A DNA stretch of 64,000 nucleotides from assembly GCA_031701365.1 (NCBI GenBank), contig GCA_031701365.1_4118.1. The stretch is one strand, 5' to 3'. This document shows positions 20,335 to 38,500 of this stretch, one piece after another (position 1 is the stretch's first letter; each line of letters begins with the position of its first letter). Under the pieces are notes generated by a model, which saw only the letters and a program-made list of their open reading frames with translations, was not told the DNA's origin and did no database searches. The position numbers were made by a program, and so were the translations under genes. The DNA comes from Escherichia coli (GTDB taxonomy: Bacteria; Pseudomonadota; Gammaproteobacteria; Enterobacterales; Enterobacteriaceae).

Positions 20335-20670
<336 letters not shown>

Positions 20671-20671
20671 A

Positions 20672-20854
20672 ATGACACACGAAGAATGGATGTCCAAACA
20701 GCATAAAGAACATGACTGCTTTGGGAATGGTATTCGTCAGGTACATTATGATATTCTCAAAGATATAAATTTATTCATAAAATATGTTTTGGATGAAAAT
20801 AAACATTGGTTTATATATGAGATTGCATATAGAAACTCAAATAAACAAAAATAA
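20672..20854 (+). CDS. MTHEEW-family mini-protein
   Basis: Starts MTHEEWM; ends 'HWFIYEIAYR' like the 20153 copy ('HWFIYELAIR'). Confidence 0.45.
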   Translation: MTHEEWMSKQHKEHDCFGNGIRQVHYDILKDINLFIKYVLDENKHWFIYEIAYRNSNKQK

Positions 20855-20868
20855 ATAAGGAATATATT

Positions 20869-21087
20869 ATGGAAACAACGTTATTTGAAGTTATTCAAGC
20901 ATTAAAAACTGGTGATGACATTCAAGTATTGCTACATGGTTATCGTTTAAAAGGCACTGTGGTTTTAGTTAATGACACAACGTTAGTTATTGCCGAAACA
21001 AATCCATATGATAGTAATCAAGTTGCTAATATCCATATTGATATTAAAAGCATTATTGGTGTAGGCGTAAATAAAAATCAAGAATAA
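20869..21087 (+). CDS. hypothetical protein
   Basis: 72 aa ORF. Confidence 0.45.
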   Translation: METTLFEVIQALKTGDDIQVLLHGYRLKGTVVLVNDTTLVIAETNPYDSNQVANIHIDIKSIIGVGVNKNQE

Positions 21088-21165
21088 CAAATGTTTTTGA
21101 AAAAACCAGAAAATGAATGATTTTTTTGGGACAACTCAAAAATATATGATATAATAATTAGTACA

Positions 21166-21255
<90 letters not shown>

Positions 21256-21259
21256 ATAT

Positions 21260-21361
<102 letters not shown>

Positions 21362-21364
21362 AAC

Positions 21365-21487
21365 CATGACGCATGAAGAATGGATGAATGACATTAATTT
21401 TAGATATGCAGGTTTCGGTAACTGGAGAAAGTATCATTGGGAAATCATGTCAGACCCAGCAGAATACGATAAACTTATAAACCATGA
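21365..21487 (+). CDS. MTHEEW-family mini-protein
   Basis: 40 aa starting MTHEEWM. Confidence 0.35.
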
Positions 21488-21526
21488 AGCGTATCCGTGG
21501 TTCTTTATTGAAATAATGGTACGAAC

Positions 21527-21692
<166 letters not shown>

Positions 21693-21700
21693 AAAAAAAG

Positions 21701-21733
<33 letters not shown>

Positions 21734-21734
21734 A

Positions 21735-22114
<380 letters not shown>

Positions 22115-22171
22115 CTAAATAATTCAGTACTGAGAATATTAATATGTTTAAAGATGAACGTCCAGATTTGT

Positions 22172-22209
<38 letters not shown>

Positions 22210-22214
22210 GAATT

Positions 22215-22557
22215 CCACAATCAGACGTATATGGTGTAAGTTACGTCGATGCTATCCAGAACAAGATCTCTGGTACTCTAGGAAGTGGTGAATGTTAACC
22301 TAGACGGGTTTGATAATTGGACGATAGGCAATTATTACTTGACTAGCAGGTTGAAACTAGAGGTGACAGTCCTTCACCAAACTGGAAAACCGGATGGACT
22401 TTTATTTAAAAGGGTAAGGCGTGGAAATATGTTTACAGAAGTTGCTTTTAGTAGCCTGTACGCACCACGTCAAGGTAGCCGAAAGGTAAGTTAAAACGGG
22501 TGGTTATAAAGCTGAATTAACAGCGGCGTTTAAAAGCGTCACCATCCATTTTTTTTT
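22215..22557 (+). ncRNA. candidate small stable RNA inside the tRNA cluster
   Basis: ~340 nt without a convincing ORF, higher GC, promoter directly upstream, ends in a T9 run (22549-22557). Confidence 0.3.
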
Positions 22558-22573
22558 AATTAAAGTTGGCAAT

Positions 22574-23067
<494 letters not shown>

Positions 23068-23070
23068 TAC

Positions 23071-23226
<156 letters not shown>

Positions 23227-23247
23227 CATAAACAATGAGAGGTATAA

Positions 23248-23765
<518 letters not shown>

Positions 23766-23805
23766 CAGGGGAGGTTGTGATTCCCGATTCAGTAGTTTTA
23801 AAGCT

Positions 23806-23914
<109 letters not shown>

Positions 23915-24075
23915 AGAGGTACTTAGAGTATACTCAGTTCACCTTTAGCTAAAATGGTCACGGTAGAATATTGTTGCAACAGTATTCAGTACTACTTTTT
24001 TAATTGACATAACTTTGAATGGAGTGTATTATGTTCCAAGAAGAAAACTGGGGTTTTTAACATAACGGGGAATGT

Positions 24076-24218
<143 letters not shown>

Positions 24219-24261
24219 AATGCGAAAGAGTATGGAGACTTGTTGGTTATCTTACTTCCTA

Positions 24262-24350
<89 letters not shown>

Positions 24351-35658: not shown

Positions 35659-36624
35659 GTGAAAAAGCTTGATTTAAATACAATTGCCGAAGAAGTTCTG
35701 GATGAATGTTTTGCTAATGAAGAAGTCAACACACTAGAAGCCTTAGATTTCGTTGAAGATAAAGATGAAAATGAAGGTAAAGTACAAAGCAGTTTCAAAT
35801 ATAATATTACACTTAAGCGACCACCAAATGTTTCCAATGAAGATCTAATTCGTGATATTCAAGCTGGTATCAATGTAAAGAAAAACACTGAACTGTTAGT
35901 TCGTTACAATTATGGACTTATTATTGATGTAGCAAGTAAATGTACTTGTTATATCCCATTTGAAGATAAGATTTCATATGGTGTTGAGGGGTTCATGAGA
36001 GCACTAAAAACCTTTGATCTTAATAAGAATGTTAAGTTCATTACCTATGCTTCTTCTAGTATTTACATGACAGTTTATAACGAAAGTTCTGACGCTAACT
36101 ATATGGTACACTTCCCACGTTATATGAGTGTTCATAAGATCAAAGTAAAAAGATTCTGTCAGGAATATATGCGTAAACATGGTGTTCGCCCAACTCCTGA
36201 AATAATCTCAGAGGGTACTGGGATTGAGATTCAGCATGTTAATAACTGTTTGTTATTTCAAAGCGAATACACTTCTCTGGATGCACCATTAGACGGTGTT
36301 ACCGATGGTACACTAGGTGACATTATTCATTCACCTGCTTCTGATTTTAACCTCAATGTTGATAGTATCCGTGCACCTTTACGTTATGCTATCAATGAAC
36401 TGACCAACGAATTGAGTACTAAAGAACGTGAGATTATCCAGCGTGTTCATGGTCTAGGTGAATATGAACCTGAAACGCTTCGTGAGATTGCTGATAATGG
36501 TTTTGTTGATGATAATGGAAAATATGTTAAATCCCGTTCATCAATACACCGAAAGTACAGTGAAGCTATGCAAAAGCTTAAGAAGCTAGTACTTGCAAAA
36601 GGGTACGAATACGAAGATTTCTAA
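35659..36624 (+). CDS. sigma-70-family RNA polymerase sigma factor
   Basis: 321 aa, GTG start after AGGAG; region-2-like 'YGVEGFMRALKTFD...FITYASSSIYMTV', region-4-like 'LSTKEREIIQRVHGL...ETLREIA...SRSSIHRKYSEAMQKLKKL'. Confidence 0.6.
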   Translation: MKKLDLNTIAEEVLDECFANEEVNTLEALDFVEDKDENEGKVQSSFKYNITLKRPPNVSNEDLIRDIQAGINVKKNTELLVRYNYGLIIDVASKCTCYIPFEDKISYGVEGFMRALKTFDLNKNVKFITYASSSIYMTVYNESSDANYMVHFPRYMSVHKIKVKRFCQEYMRKHGVRPTPEIISEGTGIEIQHVNNCLLFQSEYTSLDAPLDGVTDGTLGDIIHSPASDFNLNVDSIRAPLRYAINELTNELSTKEREIIQRVHGLGEYEPETLREIADNGFVDDNGKYVKSRSSIHRKYSEAMQKLKKLVLAKGYEYEDF

Positions 36625-36630
36625 AGAAAA

Positions 36631-36657
36631 AAGGTTGGCTTATGCCAACCTTTTTTT
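36631..36657 (+). terminator. rho-independent terminator (AAGGTTGGC-TTAT-GCCAACCTT + T7)
   Basis: Perfect 9-bp stem and T-run after sigma gene stop. Confidence 0.7.
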
Positions 36658-36689
36658 ATGGGATGAAGTAAAAGTTTGTGATATAATTA

Positions 36690-37180
36690 TCTTGTACAAT
36701 TCTGTTGGCATGATATTCATGTACCTGATCCACTCGAAAACGTAGAGGGCAGTTGAGCAGTCCGACAGTGCGAACAGCAAAAGAAACCCGTTAGATGTGG
36801 GCATAGTTTGAACCCCTCACGGCAATGCGGCTGTATAAAGAACCACGTTAGGATAGCTGGTGGTTCCTTGATAGACATATAAGGATAACACCTTACGAAT
36901 TATCTAAGGGAGAGTTATCGAATTTTGTACAGGAAAGTTGCGTCCAAAATTTGAGTACTCACATTAAGTATTTGATTGCATAGATACTTAATGAAGATAC
37001 ACTATGTTTAAAAGTGTAGACCGTCATATGAAACTGAAGTAGAGAGAAACAGGATGACCCGCTTTCGCACTCGTTATGAGTAATCTTCAATGCAATAGCT
37101 CTGATACCATCAGCGTCAAATTTCCCTCCTTGTGGGGGGAAGAAAAATCCCTTCCTCAAATCCCGTCAATATTAAAAGTC
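36690..37180 (+). ncRNA. candidate structured non-coding RNA / non-coding island
   Basis: ~500 nt with stops in all plus frames, locally elevated GC, preceded by extended -10 (TGaTATAAT 36676-87), followed by promoter at 37182. Confidence 0.3.
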
Positions 37181-37274
37181 CTTGACAGTTATTAATCATT
37201 CGCGTAGAATACGTAGTATTAGAAGCGAACAGACATCTCGAAGAGATGGATGATTAACCATTAAGGAATATCCA

Positions 37275-37484
37275 ATGAATTCAGTAATCTTTTTAGTAGT
37301 CGCTTTCTCTGTTAATTCCGGTATACAAATAACCCCAATGAATTCCATGAATCAATGCATAGCAGTACGTGATAGTACATACGAACAAGTAAACAAAGAT
37401 ATTTGGATTACAGTTAATAAAGAACAAATGTGGTGTTACAATAGTAATACTAACACAAAGCTTATTGTAGGACAAACTCAATGA
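37275..37484 (+). CDS. small secreted/membrane protein
   Basis: 69 aa; hydrophobic N-terminus. Confidence 0.45.
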   Translation: MNSVIFLVVAFSVNSGIQITPMNSMNQCIAVRDSTYEQVNKDIWITVNKEQMWCYNSNTNTKLIVGQTQ

Positions 37485-37711
37485 GTTATGGTGTTCGTTT
37501 TGAGATTCGTTCTATTGTCATCGATGCAGAGAAACAAGTATCGTTAGATGGTGATATACGTGAAATTTATCTATCATGTATCCGTGCGAAATCTGAAGCA
37601 GATGCCTTAGTACAAATGTATAGTTTTAACTTTTCAAATGGATTCTATTTGGTACGAGTTGTTGAAGTTAAAAAAGTAATTCTTGGTTGTTGCATAGAAG
37701 GAATAATGTAA
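37481..37711 (+). CDS. hypothetical protein
   Basis: 76 aa ORF, ATGA overlap. Confidence 0.45.
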   Translation: MSYGVRFEIRSIVIDAEKQVSLDGDIREIYLSCIRAKSEADALVQMYSFNFSNGFYLVRVVEVKKVILGCCIEGIM

Positions 37712-38500
37712 ATGAGCACTATCGATGAACTGATTCAACGGAATTCAAAATATTACCAACCATCAGAAATTGTGGATAACATTACTAAATCTGAGTTTGG
37801 ACCGAACACACGCAAACTCATTCATGTAATGTCACGTGATGGCTTTAAATGTGATTGTTGTGGTGAATCAAATGTAGTATTCACTTTACACAAGCACAGT
37901 ACTAAAGAACGTTATAAATTCAGACCTTATGTACTTAAAGGGAAACGTCTTGTACGCATGACGTTAGACCATAACGTACTGGACTGTCTTCAGGGCGGTA
38001 ATGATAAAGAGAACATGACTGCATTGTGTGAAGATTGTAACGCATTACGTCAGCATAAGTTTGCTGAGTACAGTGAGTTTAAACACTGGTATCATAACGC
38101 GGATCGTTCAATCGAGCCTGACGTTAACTACTGCTTCATTGAGTACATTAAGAATGCAAAAGATACATACATTCTTAAATCAATGTCACCTATTACCGTG
38201 TTTCCTGAGAACCTATTCACTACATTAAAGAATAGTTTTATTGTAGGTGATATTGATGCATTCAAGTATTTTGACAAAGGTGCAAAACATTTTGAAATTC
38301 AATGTCTTAGTACTGCACTATGTGAACTCATTAAAATTTACATAAAAGAGTATTTGGGTATTGACAATGTACGTGTACCAGAGTATACTTTTTCTATTGA
38401 ATTCAATTGTGAATCAATCAAAGAGTTTGGAATTCTTTTCAATAAACAAATAGAACTTGCAATTCAAAACGAAATCAAGTACTATACTACTAACATTTAA
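37712..38500 (+). CDS. HNH endonuclease
   Basis: 262 aa; 'FKCDCCGES' (CxxC), 'TLDHNVLDCLQGGNDKENMTALCEDCNALRQHK' (DH...N...CxxC-N). Confidence 0.7.
   Translation: MSTIDELIQRNSKYYQPSEIVDNITKSEFGPNTRKLIHVMSRDGFKCDCCGESNVVFTLHKHSTKERYKFRPYVLKGKRLVRMTLDHNVLDCLQGGNDKENMTALCEDCNALRQHKFAEYSEFKHWYHNADRSIEPDVNYCFIEYIKNAKDTYILKSMSPITVFPENLFTTLKNSFIVGDIDAFKYFDKGAKHFEIQCLSTALCELIKIYIKEYLGIDNVRVPEYTFSIEFNCESIKEFGILFNKQIELAIQNEIKYYTTNI

What the first reader, a model, noticed from the sequence alone, without database searches (positions are those of the whole stretch)
36660..37270. 600-bp non-coding island between the sigma-factor operon and the HNH endonuclease operon
In a genome with almost no intergenic space, this interval has stops in every plus-strand frame and visibly higher GC with many short complementary segments. 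It is preceded by a strong terminator (36631-36657) and an extended -10 element (TGTGATATAAT, 36676-36687), and followed by a promoter (about 37182-37210). It may be a structured non-coding RNA, a replication/packaging cis element, or the decayed remnant of an inserted mobile element; an HNH endonuclease gene follows 450 bp downstream. I could not recognise a known RNA family by eye.
Basis: seen in the sequence. Interest (0 to 1): 0.6.

Follow-up and report, generated by a model that had tools for sequence, protein, structure and literature searches.

The report
New large pseudoknotted phage RNA gene
The "empty" 600 bp holds a gene for a roughly 480-nucleotide, intricately folded non-coding RNA of a family I found in no RNA database or paper, present in 3-5 copies in giant enterobacterial phages and once, beside the integrase, in some prophages; its function is unknown.

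Summary
Window 36660-37270 (Escherichia jumbo phage vB_EcoM_G17, Asteriusvirus) has no conserved ORF, is GC-richer than its surroundings, follows a terminator and carries an extended -10 promoter.

What lies there is a stand-alone RNA gene, about 36694-37172 on the + strand. It is one of four diverged paralogs (64-74% identical) in this genome. It belongs to a family of about 100 unique sequences. These occur in RaK2-like jumbo phages (3-5 copies each) and, as a single copy, in Enterobacterales prophages and islands in the order integrase, then RNA, then a convergent CI repressor.

An 18-helix model with three pseudoknots is 89.5% base-paired across 40 sequences, against 38-45% for slid controls. 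Of 108 pairs, 77 show compensatory double changes. G-U pairs outnumber A-C 338 to 44, which fixes the + strand as functional.

Rfam 15 gives no match, ARAGORN finds nothing here, and literature searches found no description. The downstream HNH gene is a variable insertion and is not linked to the RNA.

Function is unknown. I infer a trans-acting accessory RNA that binds a partner, catalyses a reaction or self-assembles. Its nearest analogues in lifestyle are ROOL and GOLLD. The cis-regulatory, replication-origin, coding and decayed-remnant readings are disfavoured.

The parts
36631..36657 (+). Intrinsic terminator of the sigma-factor operon. It is not part of the RNA and marks the upstream boundary of the transcription unit.
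   Evidence: Stem 36633-39/36644-50 plus a T-run is visible. It is annotated as a terminator in G17. Terminator-driven weak Rfam hits fall here.
36659..36687 (+). Promoter of the RNA gene: -35-like TGGGAT (36659-64), a 17-nt spacer, and extended -10 TGATATAAT (36679-87).
   Evidence: Sequence. The same TGnTAnnnT with TGAAAC/TGGGAC 17 nt upstream occurs in 83 of 100 unique family copies, prophage copies included. The transcription start is inferred at about 36693-36696 and has not been measured.
36694..37172 (+). The RNA gene itself, about 480 nt (predicted start to the end of the conserved 3' tail). It is copy 'A' of four paralogs in this phage.
   Evidence: nhmmer profile hit at 36690-37172, E 3e-107. 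Covariance model R1 scores 149 bits, E 3.5e-34, on 36771-36913. Structure support.
36702..36771 (+). 5' domain. P1 is 36702-08:36762-68. Variable hairpin P1a is 36709-21. P2 is 36725-35:36745-52 with the conserved loop GAAAAYGUA. The junction UGAG is invariant. The small helix P1' (36757-59:36769-71) has a loop that supplies the 3' strand of P1, which makes pseudoknot 1.
   Evidence: P1 is 94% paired with 8 of 9 pairs changing on both sides. P2 is 89% paired. P1' is 100% paired. In 94 sequences the middle pair of P1' reads C:G 17, A:U 21, U:A 56.
36774..36834 (+). P3 (36774-78:36830-34) and P4 (36788-91:36819-22) enclose the hairpin or insertion P4a (36799-801:36813-15). P3 and P4 are separated by an invariant internal loop, A.GAAAC / CAAUGCG.
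   Evidence: P3 is 100% and P4 99.7% canonical in 94 sequences. Four of five P3 pairs covary. The blocks GAAACCCG and CGGCAAT..GGC are at least 97% invariant.
36840..36866 (+). P5 hairpin (36840-46:36860-66).
   Evidence: All 7 pairs change on both sides, with 3-4 pair types per position.
36868..36912 (+). Invariant junction CU.GAUAGA.AUAU, the P6 hairpin (36880-84:36891-95), a variable 7-8 nt linker, and the invariant AAGGGAG (36906-12).
   Evidence: P6 covaries, for example UAAGG/CCUUA against UGAG/CUCA.
36912..36960 (+). Long hairpin 'M', a movable peripheral module (consensus UUGUACAAUAUAGAUCCGUCCAAAAUU). In other copies it sits inside H12, or in both places.
   Evidence: Alignment. It is 74% paired in the MAFFT alignment, where it is poorly aligned because it relocates.
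36962..37096 (+). 3' core. Helix X is 36962-71:36984-93. The loop of X (36975-81) pairs with 37090-96, forming pseudoknot Y. H8 is 36998-37002:37014-18. The block GACCGU is invariant. Pseudoknot Z is 37023-27:37054-58. H10 is 37035-39:37085-89. H11 is 37042-46:37062-66, with a conserved loop ending in ACCCGC. H12 is 37069-72:37078-81.
   Evidence: Y is 99.3-99.5% paired with 6 of 7 pairs covarying. Z is 100% paired, and the window copy itself carries the compensatory GUCAU:AUGAC where others have GUUGY:RCAAC. H10 and H11 are 100% paired. X has 4-6 pair types per position.
37097..37118 (+). H13 hairpin (about 37101-05:37109-13; the register differs between copies), ending in the first conserved CGUCA (37114-18). 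In about half of the copies a hairpin plus U-run (intrinsic terminator) is inserted right after this point. The window copy has none.
   Evidence: A run of five or more T in the 3' quarter occurs in 49 of 100 copies. H13 is only 32% paired under a fixed register.
37121..37172 (+). 3' module: the hairpin UUUCCCUCC-UUGU-GGGGGGAAG (37121-42), then an A-rich tail ending in AAAUCCCGUCA (second CGUCA at 37164-68).
   Evidence: The inner 5 pairs are 97.5% canonical with C-G/U-G alternation. GGGGG and AAA.C..GUCA are at least 97% invariant in 94 sequences, prophage copies included.
37182..37210 (+). Separate sigma-70 promoter (TTGACA-17-TAGAAT) of the next operon (ORF 37275-37484 onward). It is not part of the RNA.
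   Evidence: 11 of 12 positions. It is not conserved with the element in the other copies.

Best explanation
Window 36694-37172 (+) is an independently transcribed gene for a roughly 480-nt non-coding RNA of a family for which I found no prior description.

Shown. The gene has its own host-type (sigma-70, extended -10) promoter directly after the upstream terminator. The transcript is constrained to fold into at least 18 helices, including three pseudoknots. These are organised around single-stranded blocks that are virtually invariant: UGAG, GAAACCCG, CGGCAAUGCGGC, GAUAGACAUAU, AAGGGAG, GACCGU, ACCCGC, and G5 plus AAAUCYCGUCA. The phage carries four diverged paralogs, and related jumbo phages carry 3-5. 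Temperate prophages and islands of Enterobacterales carry one copy between the integrase and the CI repressor.

Inferred. The RNA acts in trans as a folded molecule and is an accessory, 'moron-like' function. It is probably made early in lytic infection and constitutively from prophages. The invariant junctions would form a compact core that binds a conserved partner (sequestering or scaffolding it), catalyses a reaction, or mediates self-assembly. The variable hairpins would be peripheral.

My estimates:
- Structured, trans-acting ncRNA gene: about 0.9.
- Within that, binder or decoy of a protein or RNA in phage-host or phage-phage conflict: about 0.4.
- Homo-oligomeric RNA architecture like ROOL/GOLLD: about 0.2.
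- Ribozyme: about 0.15.
For: Family and copy number:
- blastn finds the core in 62-71 jumbo-phage records, with 3-5 places per genome.
- There are four same-strand paralogs in the ECO103 4-12-1 genome, 64-74% identical.
- nhmmer finds 125 hits and about 100 unique copies over the loci from IMG/VR, metagenomes and GTDB genomes.

Structure:
- RNAalifold predicts 61 pairs, 40 with compensatory changes.
- My 108-pair model is 89.5% paired against 38-45% when partners are slid. Of its pairs, 77 change on both sides. The covariation score is 0.433 against 0.07-0.09. No shuffle out of 500 reaches the observed value on any of the five measures.
- In 94 sequences, P3, Z and H10 are 100% canonical, and Y, P4 and H11 are at least 99.5%. 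P1' is 94 of 94 canonical.

Strand: G-U 338 against A-C 44.

Specificity: CM R1 scores 149 bits in the window. It finds exactly 4 copies in 350 kb of the sister genome and only one true locus in 793 kb of unrelated viral DNA. Bacterial copies score 60-111 bits.

Own transcription unit: the promoter is conserved in 83 of 100 copies, about half of the copies have a terminator, and a separate promoter serves the next operon.

Not a leader: copy C and the prophage copies are followed by convergent genes.

Not a known family: Rfam 15 gives no hit at E up to 10 inside the element, and ARAGORN finds no tRNA or tmRNA there.

Analogy: ROOL and GOLLD are large, multi-pseudoknotted RNAs of phages and prophages with unknown function (PMC12286853).
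Against: - No expression data exist for any member. The transcript ends, abundance and timing are all inferred from promoter and terminator sequence.
- In PA5oct, the one relative with RNA-seq that I found, the four reported lncRNAs do not match the model.
- Single-sequence folding energy is unremarkable, with z = -1.5.
- No conserved protein partner was found next to the RNA in either setting, so the 'binder/decoy' mechanism is conjecture.
- The universally conserved 3' module lies downstream of an apparent intrinsic terminator in about half of the copies. This does not fit a simple promoter-to-terminator gene and may mean that processing, read-through or a second function is involved.
- Some helices (M, H13, outer 3' hairpin, P4a) are only 32-74% paired in the automatic alignment.
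Confidence: 0.85

Rival explanations
1. Cis-acting leader. The element would be a very large 5' leader (riboswitch, T-box-like or put/EAR-like antitermination RNA) that controls read-through into the downstream genes. The optional terminator and the 3' hairpin would serve as its expression platform.
For: The element lies just downstream of a promoter and upstream of co-oriented ORFs for copies A, B and D. About half of the copies carry an intrinsic terminator between the RNA body and the conserved 3' module. Multi-copy, diverged paralogs are typical of riboswitch or T-box leaders.
Against: - Copy C is followed by convergent genes, including the baseplate hub on the opposite strand.
- In prophages the next gene is the convergent CI repressor.
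- The window copy is followed by a separate 11/12 sigma-70 promoter for the next operon.
- The downstream genes of the four paralogs are unrelated.
- No alternative terminator/antiterminator pairing was evident.
Confidence: 0.06
2. Replication-origin primer transcript (like ColE1 RNA II, or T4 oriF/oriG). Each copy would be an origin where a structured transcript forms a persistent R-loop, helped by the C5/G6 hairpin, and primes DNA synthesis. Several origins would be spread over a 350-kb genome.
For: Four copies are spaced 54-110 kb apart around the genome, all preceded by a strong promoter. There is a G-run/C-run element at the 3' end. RNA II-type primers are also structured RNAs of about 500 nt (general knowledge).
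Against: - Cumulative GC skew follows gene orientation and shows no inflection at any copy.
- The family also occurs as a single copy beside the integrase of prophages and in a 10-kb E. coli island. A lytic origin is not expected there.
- Three covariation-supported pseudoknots and many invariant junction nucleotides go well beyond what primer RNAs show.
- No AT-rich unwinding element is conserved downstream.
Confidence: 0.04
3. A large ribozyme. The invariant junctions and pseudoknots would form an active site, for instance for self-processing at the two conserved CGUCA sites that bracket the 3' module, or for acting on another RNA.
For: The size, the triple-pseudoknot architecture and the near-invariant single-stranded blocks are typical of group I introns, RNase P and other large ribozymes. 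The CGUCA motif is duplicated at 37114-18 and 37164-68.
Against: No similarity to any ribozyme family in Rfam. There are no flanking exons and no substrate genes such as tRNAs next to it; the tRNA island is 12 kb away. Nothing in the sequence identifies a chemistry.
Confidence: 0.12
4. Nothing functional. The interval would be a decayed remnant of an inserted mobile element or intron, or it would encode the small proteins that several GenBank records annotate here.
For: Homing-type HNH and endonuclease VII genes lie next to copies A and C. Some records annotate 3-5 'hypothetical proteins' across the element.
Against: - The element is conserved at 55-75% identity across at least nine host genera, with 77 compensated base pairs.
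- Blocks are at least 97% invariant in 94 sequences.
- The ORFs are not conserved, and indels are not multiples of three.
- The HNH gene is absent from a 99%-identical genome that keeps the RNA.
Confidence: 0.02

Closest known systems
ROOL RNA and GOLLD RNA (large 'ornate' RNAs of phages and prophages; Rfam families; cryo-EM nanocages, PMC12286853)
   Same: All are large (about 500-800 nt) stand-alone ncRNAs with many helices and multiple pseudoknots. All are carried by both lytic phages and prophages. None has a known protein partner, and function is unknown. The closest resemblance is in lifestyle.
   Different: - No sequence or structure match to either covariance model.
- Hosts are Enterobacterales (plus Xanthomonas phages) rather than Firmicutes, Actinobacteria or marine samples.
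- Not adjacent to a tRNA island (12 kb away).
- Present as 3-5 diverged paralogs per jumbo-phage genome.
- Oligomerisation is untested.
Other large bacterial ncRNA classes and ribozymes (OLE, HEARO/IscB omega-RNA, raiA, RNase P RNA, tmRNA, group I/II introns)
   Same: Comparable size range, pseudoknots and strongly conserved junction nucleotides.
   Different: - No CM hit to any of them and no ARAGORN tmRNA hit.
- No flanking exons.
- No adjacent IscB, TnpB or reverse-transcriptase gene.
- The only nearby nuclease gene (HNH, 37712-38500) is a variable insertion absent from a sister genome.
Phage 'morons' (autonomous promoter-gene-terminator cassettes in prophages)
   Same: It has its own sigma-70 promoter and often its own terminator. 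It is inserted between unrelated genes. In prophages it sits at the integrase-proximal end, where accessory cargo is usually found.
   Different: The cargo is an RNA rather than a protein. The same cassette is multi-copy in strictly lytic jumbo phages.
RNA-seq-defined lncRNAs of the related jumbo phage PA5oct (PMC7318152)
   Same: They are ORF-free transcripts of 236-619 nt in a phage of the same broad clade, and two of them are highly expressed. They show that such phages do make abundant long ncRNAs.
   Different: No detectable homology by blastn or by CM with filters off. Nothing is reported about their structure.

Membership tests
Any Rfam 15 family (4227 models, including group I/II introns, RNase P, tmRNA, 6S, ROOL, GOLLD, OLE, HEARO, retron msr) | Match to the family covariance model at or near its gathering score. 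| tested here: not met
   A sensitive cmscan (E up to 10) of 36000-38000 gives only terminator-driven or noise hits. Nothing inside 36690-37172 scores above 17.6 bits. Five diverged homologs give nothing either.
tRNA / tmRNA | Cloverleaf or tRNA-like domain detectable by ARAGORN. | tested here: not met
   ARAGORN finds 6 tRNAs at 20.3-24.3 kb and none in 36-38 kb.
Group I / group II intron | Interrupts a host gene, with flanking exons that join into an ORF or RNA. | tested here: not met
   The element starts at its own promoter after a terminator and lies between complete genes, in all four paralogs and in prophages.
ROOL / GOLLD class ('works like', not membership) | Large multi-pseudoknotted RNA carried by phages and prophages. 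| tested here: met
   About 480 nt with three covariation-supported pseudoknots, found in jumbo phages and prophages.
ROOL / GOLLD class | Located next to tRNA islands. | tested here: not met
   The nearest tRNA is 12 kb away in the window. No tRNA is annotated next to the E. coli island copy, only ffs 4 kb away.
ROOL / GOLLD class | Forms RNA-only homo-oligomeric cages through kissing loops and A-minor contacts. | not testable with these tools
   This needs native gels, SEC-MALS or cryo-EM. Note that a pairing supported by covariation (for example Y) could in principle be intermolecular, as was found for ROOL.
Riboswitch / T-box / antitermination leader (cis-regulatory RNA) | Always precedes a co-oriented regulated gene, with an expression platform. 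| tested here: not met
   Copy C and the prophage copies are followed by convergent genes. There is a separate promoter downstream of the window copy.
IscB/TnpB omega-RNA (HEARO-like) or retron ncRNA | Obligatory adjacent effector gene (IscB, TnpB or reverse transcriptase). | tested here: not met
   Neighbours differ at every copy. The HNH ORF is absent from ECO103 4-12-1. No protein is shared between the prophage loci and the jumbo genome apart from an unlinked DUF4326 protein.
Recombinase guide RNA (IS110 bridge-RNA-like) | Co-inheritance with one recombinase family. | tested here: not met
   Prophage copies sit beside either large serine recombinases or tyrosine integrases. The jumbo-phage copies examined (A-D) have no integrase gene beside them.
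R-loop / RNA II-type replication origin | Coincides with a replication start (skew inflection, initiation mapping). | tested here: inconclusive
   There is no GC-skew inflection at the four copies, but skew in this genome tracks transcription direction, so the test is weak.
Protein-coding gene | A conserved open frame, with indels in multiples of three. | tested here: not met
   The longest ORFs have a median of 63 aa and are not homologous. The frames of the three minus-strand ORFs are open in 7-27 of 94 copies. Length differences are not multiples of three in 53-68 of 94.

The most novel reading that the evidence does not exclude
This is a new class of large, triple-pseudoknotted 'ornate' RNA. 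It is not a distant member of any curated family. It is shared horizontally between strictly lytic jumbo phages (3-5 paralogs each) and temperate prophages or islands of Enterobacterales. Its invariant core would be either an RNA active site or an RNA-only assembly or decoy used in phage-host or phage-phage conflict. That would make it the enterobacterial counterpart of ROOL/GOLLD, in phages that infect E. coli K-12 and can be manipulated genetically.
Probability: 0.55. Interest if true: 0.88.

Novelty: categorically new. Interest (0 to 1): 0.8.

Why it matters
Large, highly structured bacterial or phage RNAs without a known function are rare. OLE, GOLLD, ROOL, HEARO and raiA are the main examples, and each has turned out to be mechanistically unusual.

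This family has the same hallmarks: about 480-600 nt, at least 18 helices, three pseudoknots, and invariant junctions. Unlike ROOL and GOLLD, it occurs in phages of E. coli, Salmonella, Klebsiella, Serratia and Erwinia. One of them, phage Sharanji, grows on E. coli K-12 MG1655. Genetics, pull-downs and cryo-EM are therefore directly feasible.

Its presence both in multi-copy form in lytic jumbo phages and next to integrases in prophages points to a portable accessory function. Finding that function would add an RNA player to phage-host or phage-phage biology.

There is also a practical consequence. Several GenBank records annotate spurious 'hypothetical proteins' over it, and these should be replaced by an ncRNA feature.

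Tried and rejected
- Rfam sensitive scans of the window and of five homologs found nothing.
- ARAGORN found nothing in the region.
- Two loose IMG/VR patterns (GAANACNGNNNNACCCGCTT and GATAGACATATAAG) returned mostly chance loci. They wasted two scans, and the loci were later reused as a negative control.
- Homology to the PA5oct lncRNAs was tested by blastn and by CM with filters off. There is none.
- The origin hypothesis was tested with whole-genome GC skew. No signal appeared.
- A conserved neighbouring or co-occurring protein was sought by running tblastn with all prophage-locus ORFs against the jumbo genome. The only hits were spurious ORFs inside the RNA and an unlinked DUF4326 protein.
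- PLSDB plasmids gave no hit.
- Single-sequence MFE z-scores are not significant on either strand.
- A short ORF starting at GGGGGG-AUG in the 3' module was considered. Its frame is not conserved, and the window copy lacks the AUG.
- Pairing of the invariant GCAAUG with CGUUGC was considered and rejected. The window copy breaks it while compensating helix Z instead.
- Three resemblances were noted by eye and dropped. The CsrA-like ACAGGAUG motif is not conserved in other copies. The RNase P CR-I/CR-V-like strings pair differently here. The hammerhead-like CUGAU...GAAA has the wrong topology.
- Literature searches on jumbo-phage ncRNAs, Asteriusvirus, RaK2, Sharanji and the invariant motif strings found no description.
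Full report
**1.

The window is the reverse strand of Escherichia jumbo phage vB_EcoM_G17 (MK327931.1, Asteriusvirus, 370.8 kb) at 100% identity. Window position p corresponds to G17 position 102313 - p. The flagged interval lies between two features. Upstream is a sigma-70-family gene at 35659-36624 (Pfam Sigma70_r2/r3/r4). Downstream is a small ORF at 37275-37484.

- No meaningful ORF.
- GC up to 0.46, against about 0.30-0.35 nearby.
- A textbook terminator at 36631-36657.
- An extended -10, TGATATAAT, at 36679-36687, with TGGGAT 17 nt upstream.
- A TTGACA-17-TAGAAT promoter at 37182-37210.

Two caveats apply. The generic promoter and terminator scan is not evidence by itself, since it found fewer promoter-like sites than in shuffles and missed the terminator. 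The folding energy of the single sequence is also unremarkable, with z = -1.5 on either strand.

**2. It is a conserved, multi-copy element.**

blastn of the core (36700-37180) hits 62 jumbo-phage records: Escherichia 33, Salmonella 8, Erwinia 8, Yersinia 4, Serratia 2, Pectobacterium 2, Cronobacter 2, Xanthomonas 2, Klebsiella 1. Identity is about 70% in the distant genera. Every genome shows 3-5 separate places.

I fetched 350 kb of the 352-kb genome of the unannotated, 99%-identical phage ECO103 4-12-1 and found four copies, all on the same strand, at 18, 128, 208 and 262 kb. They are 64-74% identical to each other. Only one lies in the window.

An alignment of the four copies shows blocks of near-identity separated by variable stretches with indels.

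**3. It is an RNA, on the + strand, with an elaborate fold.**

Forty sequences (55-100% identical) gave an RNAalifold consensus of 61 pairs, 40 of them with compensatory double changes.

I extended this by hand, with a covariation scan, to 108 pairs in 18 helices. The helices are P1, P1', P2, P3, P4, P4a, P5, P6, a long movable hairpin M, X, Y, H8, Z, H10, H11, H12 and a 3' hairpin.

Three interactions are pseudoknots:
- The loop of P1' (36760-68) forms P1 with the 5' end.
- The loop of X (36975-81) pairs with 37090-96 (helix Y).
- 37023-27 pairs into the loop of H11 (helix Z).

On the MAFFT alignment A1 the model scores as follows:

| Measure | Model | Slid controls |
|---|---|---|
| Cells paired | 89.5% | 38-45% |
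| Pairs with changes on both sides | 77 of 108 | 27-34 |
| Covariation score | 0.433 | 0.07-0.09 |

No shuffle out of 500 reaches the observed value on any of the five measures.

In an anchored alignment of 94 unique sequences the helices score as follows:
- P3, Z and H10 are 100% canonical.
- P4, Y and H11 are at least 99.5% canonical.
- X is 95.9% canonical, with 4-6 pair types per position.
- P1' is canonical in 94 of 94 sequences. Its middle pair reads C:G in 17, A:U in 21 and U:A in 56.

The window copy itself carries a private compensatory change in Z: GUCAU:AUGAC where the others have GUUGY:RCAAC.

G-U pairs (338 cells) far outnumber A-C (44), so the + strand is the functional one.

Between the helices lie blocks that are at least 97% invariant across all 94 sequences: UGAG, GCA, GAAACCCG, CGGCAAU..GGC, CU.GAUAGA.AUAU, AAGGGAG, GACCGU, ACCCGC, GUCA, GGGGG and AAA.C..GUCA.

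Coding is excluded. The ORFs are short, not homologous and interrupted, and indels are not in threes.

**4. It is its own transcription unit.**

Of 100 unique copies, 83 have TGnTAnnnT just upstream, with TGAAAC/TGGGAC 17 nt further up. Prophage copies have it too.

About half of the copies carry a hairpin plus U-run right after the first conserved CGUCA. The window copy does not.

All copies then continue with a conserved 3' module: a C5/G6 hairpin and an A-rich tail ending in AAAUCYCGUCA. I cannot explain why this module lies beyond an apparent terminator in half the family. Leaky termination, processing, or a peripheral hairpin that only looks like a terminator are all possible.

The downstream genes differ at each copy:
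- Copy A is followed by a separate promoter and small ORFs.
- Copy B is followed by an unknown gene and then a DNA methyltransferase.
- Copy C is followed by the convergent baseplate-hub gene.
- Copy D is followed by unknown genes.

A cis-regulatory role is therefore unlikely.

**5. It is not a known RNA.**

The sensitive Rfam 15 scan finds nothing inside the element, either in the window or in five diverged homologs. ARAGORN finds nothing.

A covariance model of the P3-P6 domain (R1: 142 positions, 24 pairs) performs as follows:
- 149 bits in the window (E 3.5e-34).
- Exactly four hits in the sister genome.
- Only the one true jumbo locus in 793 kb of unrelated viral DNA.
- A divergent copy in Klebsiella phage K64-1 (26.6 bits, E 5e-5).
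- Nothing in the four RNA-seq-defined lncRNAs of the related Pseudomonas phage PA5oct.

Full-text searches returned no description. The search terms covered jumbo-phage ncRNAs, Asteriusvirus, RaK2, Sharanji and the invariant motif strings.

**6. The family is also in bacterial chromosomes.**

I built a three-block pattern from invariant positions: CGGCNANNNGNC N30-50 GATAGANNTAT N18-34 AAGGGAG. Its matches were:
- 45 IMG/VR stretches.
- 60 metagenome stretches.
- 9 stretches in GTDB genomes.

Eight of the nine genome stretches are true homologs by nhmmer and CM. They come from Citrobacter amalonaticus, two Serratia genomes, Silvania, Enterobacter chinensis, Buttiauxella, an unnamed Enterobacteriaceae genome, and a small mis-binned contig.

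In about 20 bacterial and metagenomic loci the order is host genes, integrase, RNA (same strand), then a convergent CI-type repressor (HTH_3 plus Peptidase_S24). The integrase is a large serine recombinase in some and a tyrosine integrase in others. The RNA therefore goes with the phage backbone and not with a particular recombinase.

In E. coli it is rare: 2 of 5,426 complete genomes. There it sits unannotated in a roughly 10-kb island next to ffs, beside an IS3-disrupted integrase.

No PLSDB plasmid carries it. In the phage collection only jumbo phages do.

The prophage copies keep the whole architecture, including the promoter and the 3' module. They are as similar to some jumbo-phage paralogs (74%) as those paralogs are to each other, which implies horizontal exchange.

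No protein is shared between the prophage neighbourhoods and the jumbo genome, apart from an unlinked DUF4326 protein.

**7. The HNH gene.**

The ORF at 37712-38500 is an HNH endonuclease by PHROGs, with no Pfam hit. It is absent, together with ORF 37481-37711, from ECO103 4-12-1, which keeps the RNA. It is therefore a variable insertion and not a partner.

Copy C has an HNH endonuclease and an endonuclease VII gene just upstream. The copy in Salmonella phage 7t3 is next to endonuclease VII. I read this as free-standing homing endonucleases settling beside a highly conserved sequence. This is an inference and was not tested.

**8. How it probably works.**

Shown: it is a strand-specific, heavily constrained RNA fold with an invariant core. 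It has its own promoter. It is carried as portable cargo in two very different phage lifestyles.

Inferred:
- It is a trans-acting RNA made by host RNA polymerase, early in lytic infection and constitutively from prophages.
- Its core binds or acts on something common to Enterobacterales cells or their phages.
- The variable hairpins, including the relocating M module, are peripheral.

I cannot discriminate between a decoy or scaffold for a protein or RNA (my leading guess, about 0.4), an RNA-only assembly as in ROOL/GOLLD (about 0.2; PMC12286853) and a ribozyme (about 0.15). The cis-leader, origin-primer, coding and remnant readings are each disfavoured by specific tests (sections 3, 4 and 6).

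**9. Novelty and verdict.**

It is a new family of large, triple-pseudoknotted RNA with about 100 unique members. It is multi-copy in jumbo phages and single-copy in prophages. It is absent from Rfam 15 and from the searchable literature.

Membership in every family I considered fails on a tested defining feature. The closest analogues in lifestyle are ROOL and GOLLD.

The main weaknesses are the complete lack of expression data and of any functional clue beyond genomic context.

Noticed in passing
window 37481-38500: The HNH endonuclease gene (PHROG 35175) and the preceding small ORF are missing from the 99%-identical phage ECO103 4-12-1 at the same locus. This presence/absence polymorphism is typical of a free-standing homing endonuclease.
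   Followed up: partly
L005:28961-30469 (ECO103 4-12-1, next to RNA copy C); L012 (Salmonella phage 7t3): An HNH endonuclease and an endonuclease VII gene lie directly upstream of paralog C. The 7t3 copy is next to endonuclease VII. Homing endonucleases may target or settle beside this conserved RNA gene.
   Followed up: no
window 20357-24340: A tRNA island with six tRNA genes (Gly, Ser x2, Met, Asn, Thr) lies 12 kb upstream of the RNA. It is not adjacent, unlike the usual ROOL/GOLLD context.
   Followed up: no
window 36912-36960; L007:8060-8655; L041, L038, L031: The hairpin module with consensus UUGUACAAUAUAGAUCCGUCCAAAAUUUGA changes position within the RNA. It sits after AAGGGAG in the window copy, inside H12 in others, and in both places in paralog D.
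   Followed up: partly
L008 (paralog B), L016, L020, L025, L029, L032, L037: In one subfamily the -10 box is followed immediately by a GC-rich hairpin plus U-run, before the conserved RNA body begins. It could be an attenuator, a 5' stabiliser, or the terminator of the upstream gene overlapping the promoter. Unexplained.
   Followed up: no
window 37114-37172 and all homologs: The motif CGUCA(R) occurs twice, at the end of the RNA body and at the end of the 3' module. In about half of the copies an intrinsic terminator sits between the two, yet the 3' module stays invariant. Unexplained.
   Followed up: partly
GenBank records OR699282.2, PP886230.1, PQ330092.1, OR699181-3/8, MK773491.1 and others: Three to six 'hypothetical protein' CDSs are annotated across the RNA element in several phage records. 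They are not conserved and are almost certainly spurious.
   Followed up: yes
L305 (E. coli LR-29-1, NZ_AP027515.1 3469971-3488553): A roughly 10-kb island next to ffs carries the RNA in an unannotated 1.4-kb gap. It also carries an IS3-disrupted tyrosine integrase, DUF4326, DUF488 and dual-OB proteins, and a small recombinase. The jumbo phage also encodes a DUF4326 homolog (41% identity) far from the RNA copies.
   Followed up: partly
L366:1150-1650 (Klebsiella phage K64-1, 279.4-280.0 kb): A divergent family member keeps P2, AAGGGAG-like, GACCGUUGC...GCAACCCGC and the 3' hairpin but lacks the CGGCAAUGCGGC block. The family is therefore broader than the invariant-pattern scans show.
   Followed up: partly
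L006:49006-49106 (ECO103 4-12-1, about 199.0 kb, minus strand): A borderline hit of the covariance model (16.8 bits, E 0.11), on the same strand as the four copies. It may be a degenerate fifth copy or chance.
   Followed up: no
L315:7942-8564: A prophage-context copy is split into two profile hits by an insertion of about 84 nt at the position of the M module.
   Followed up: no
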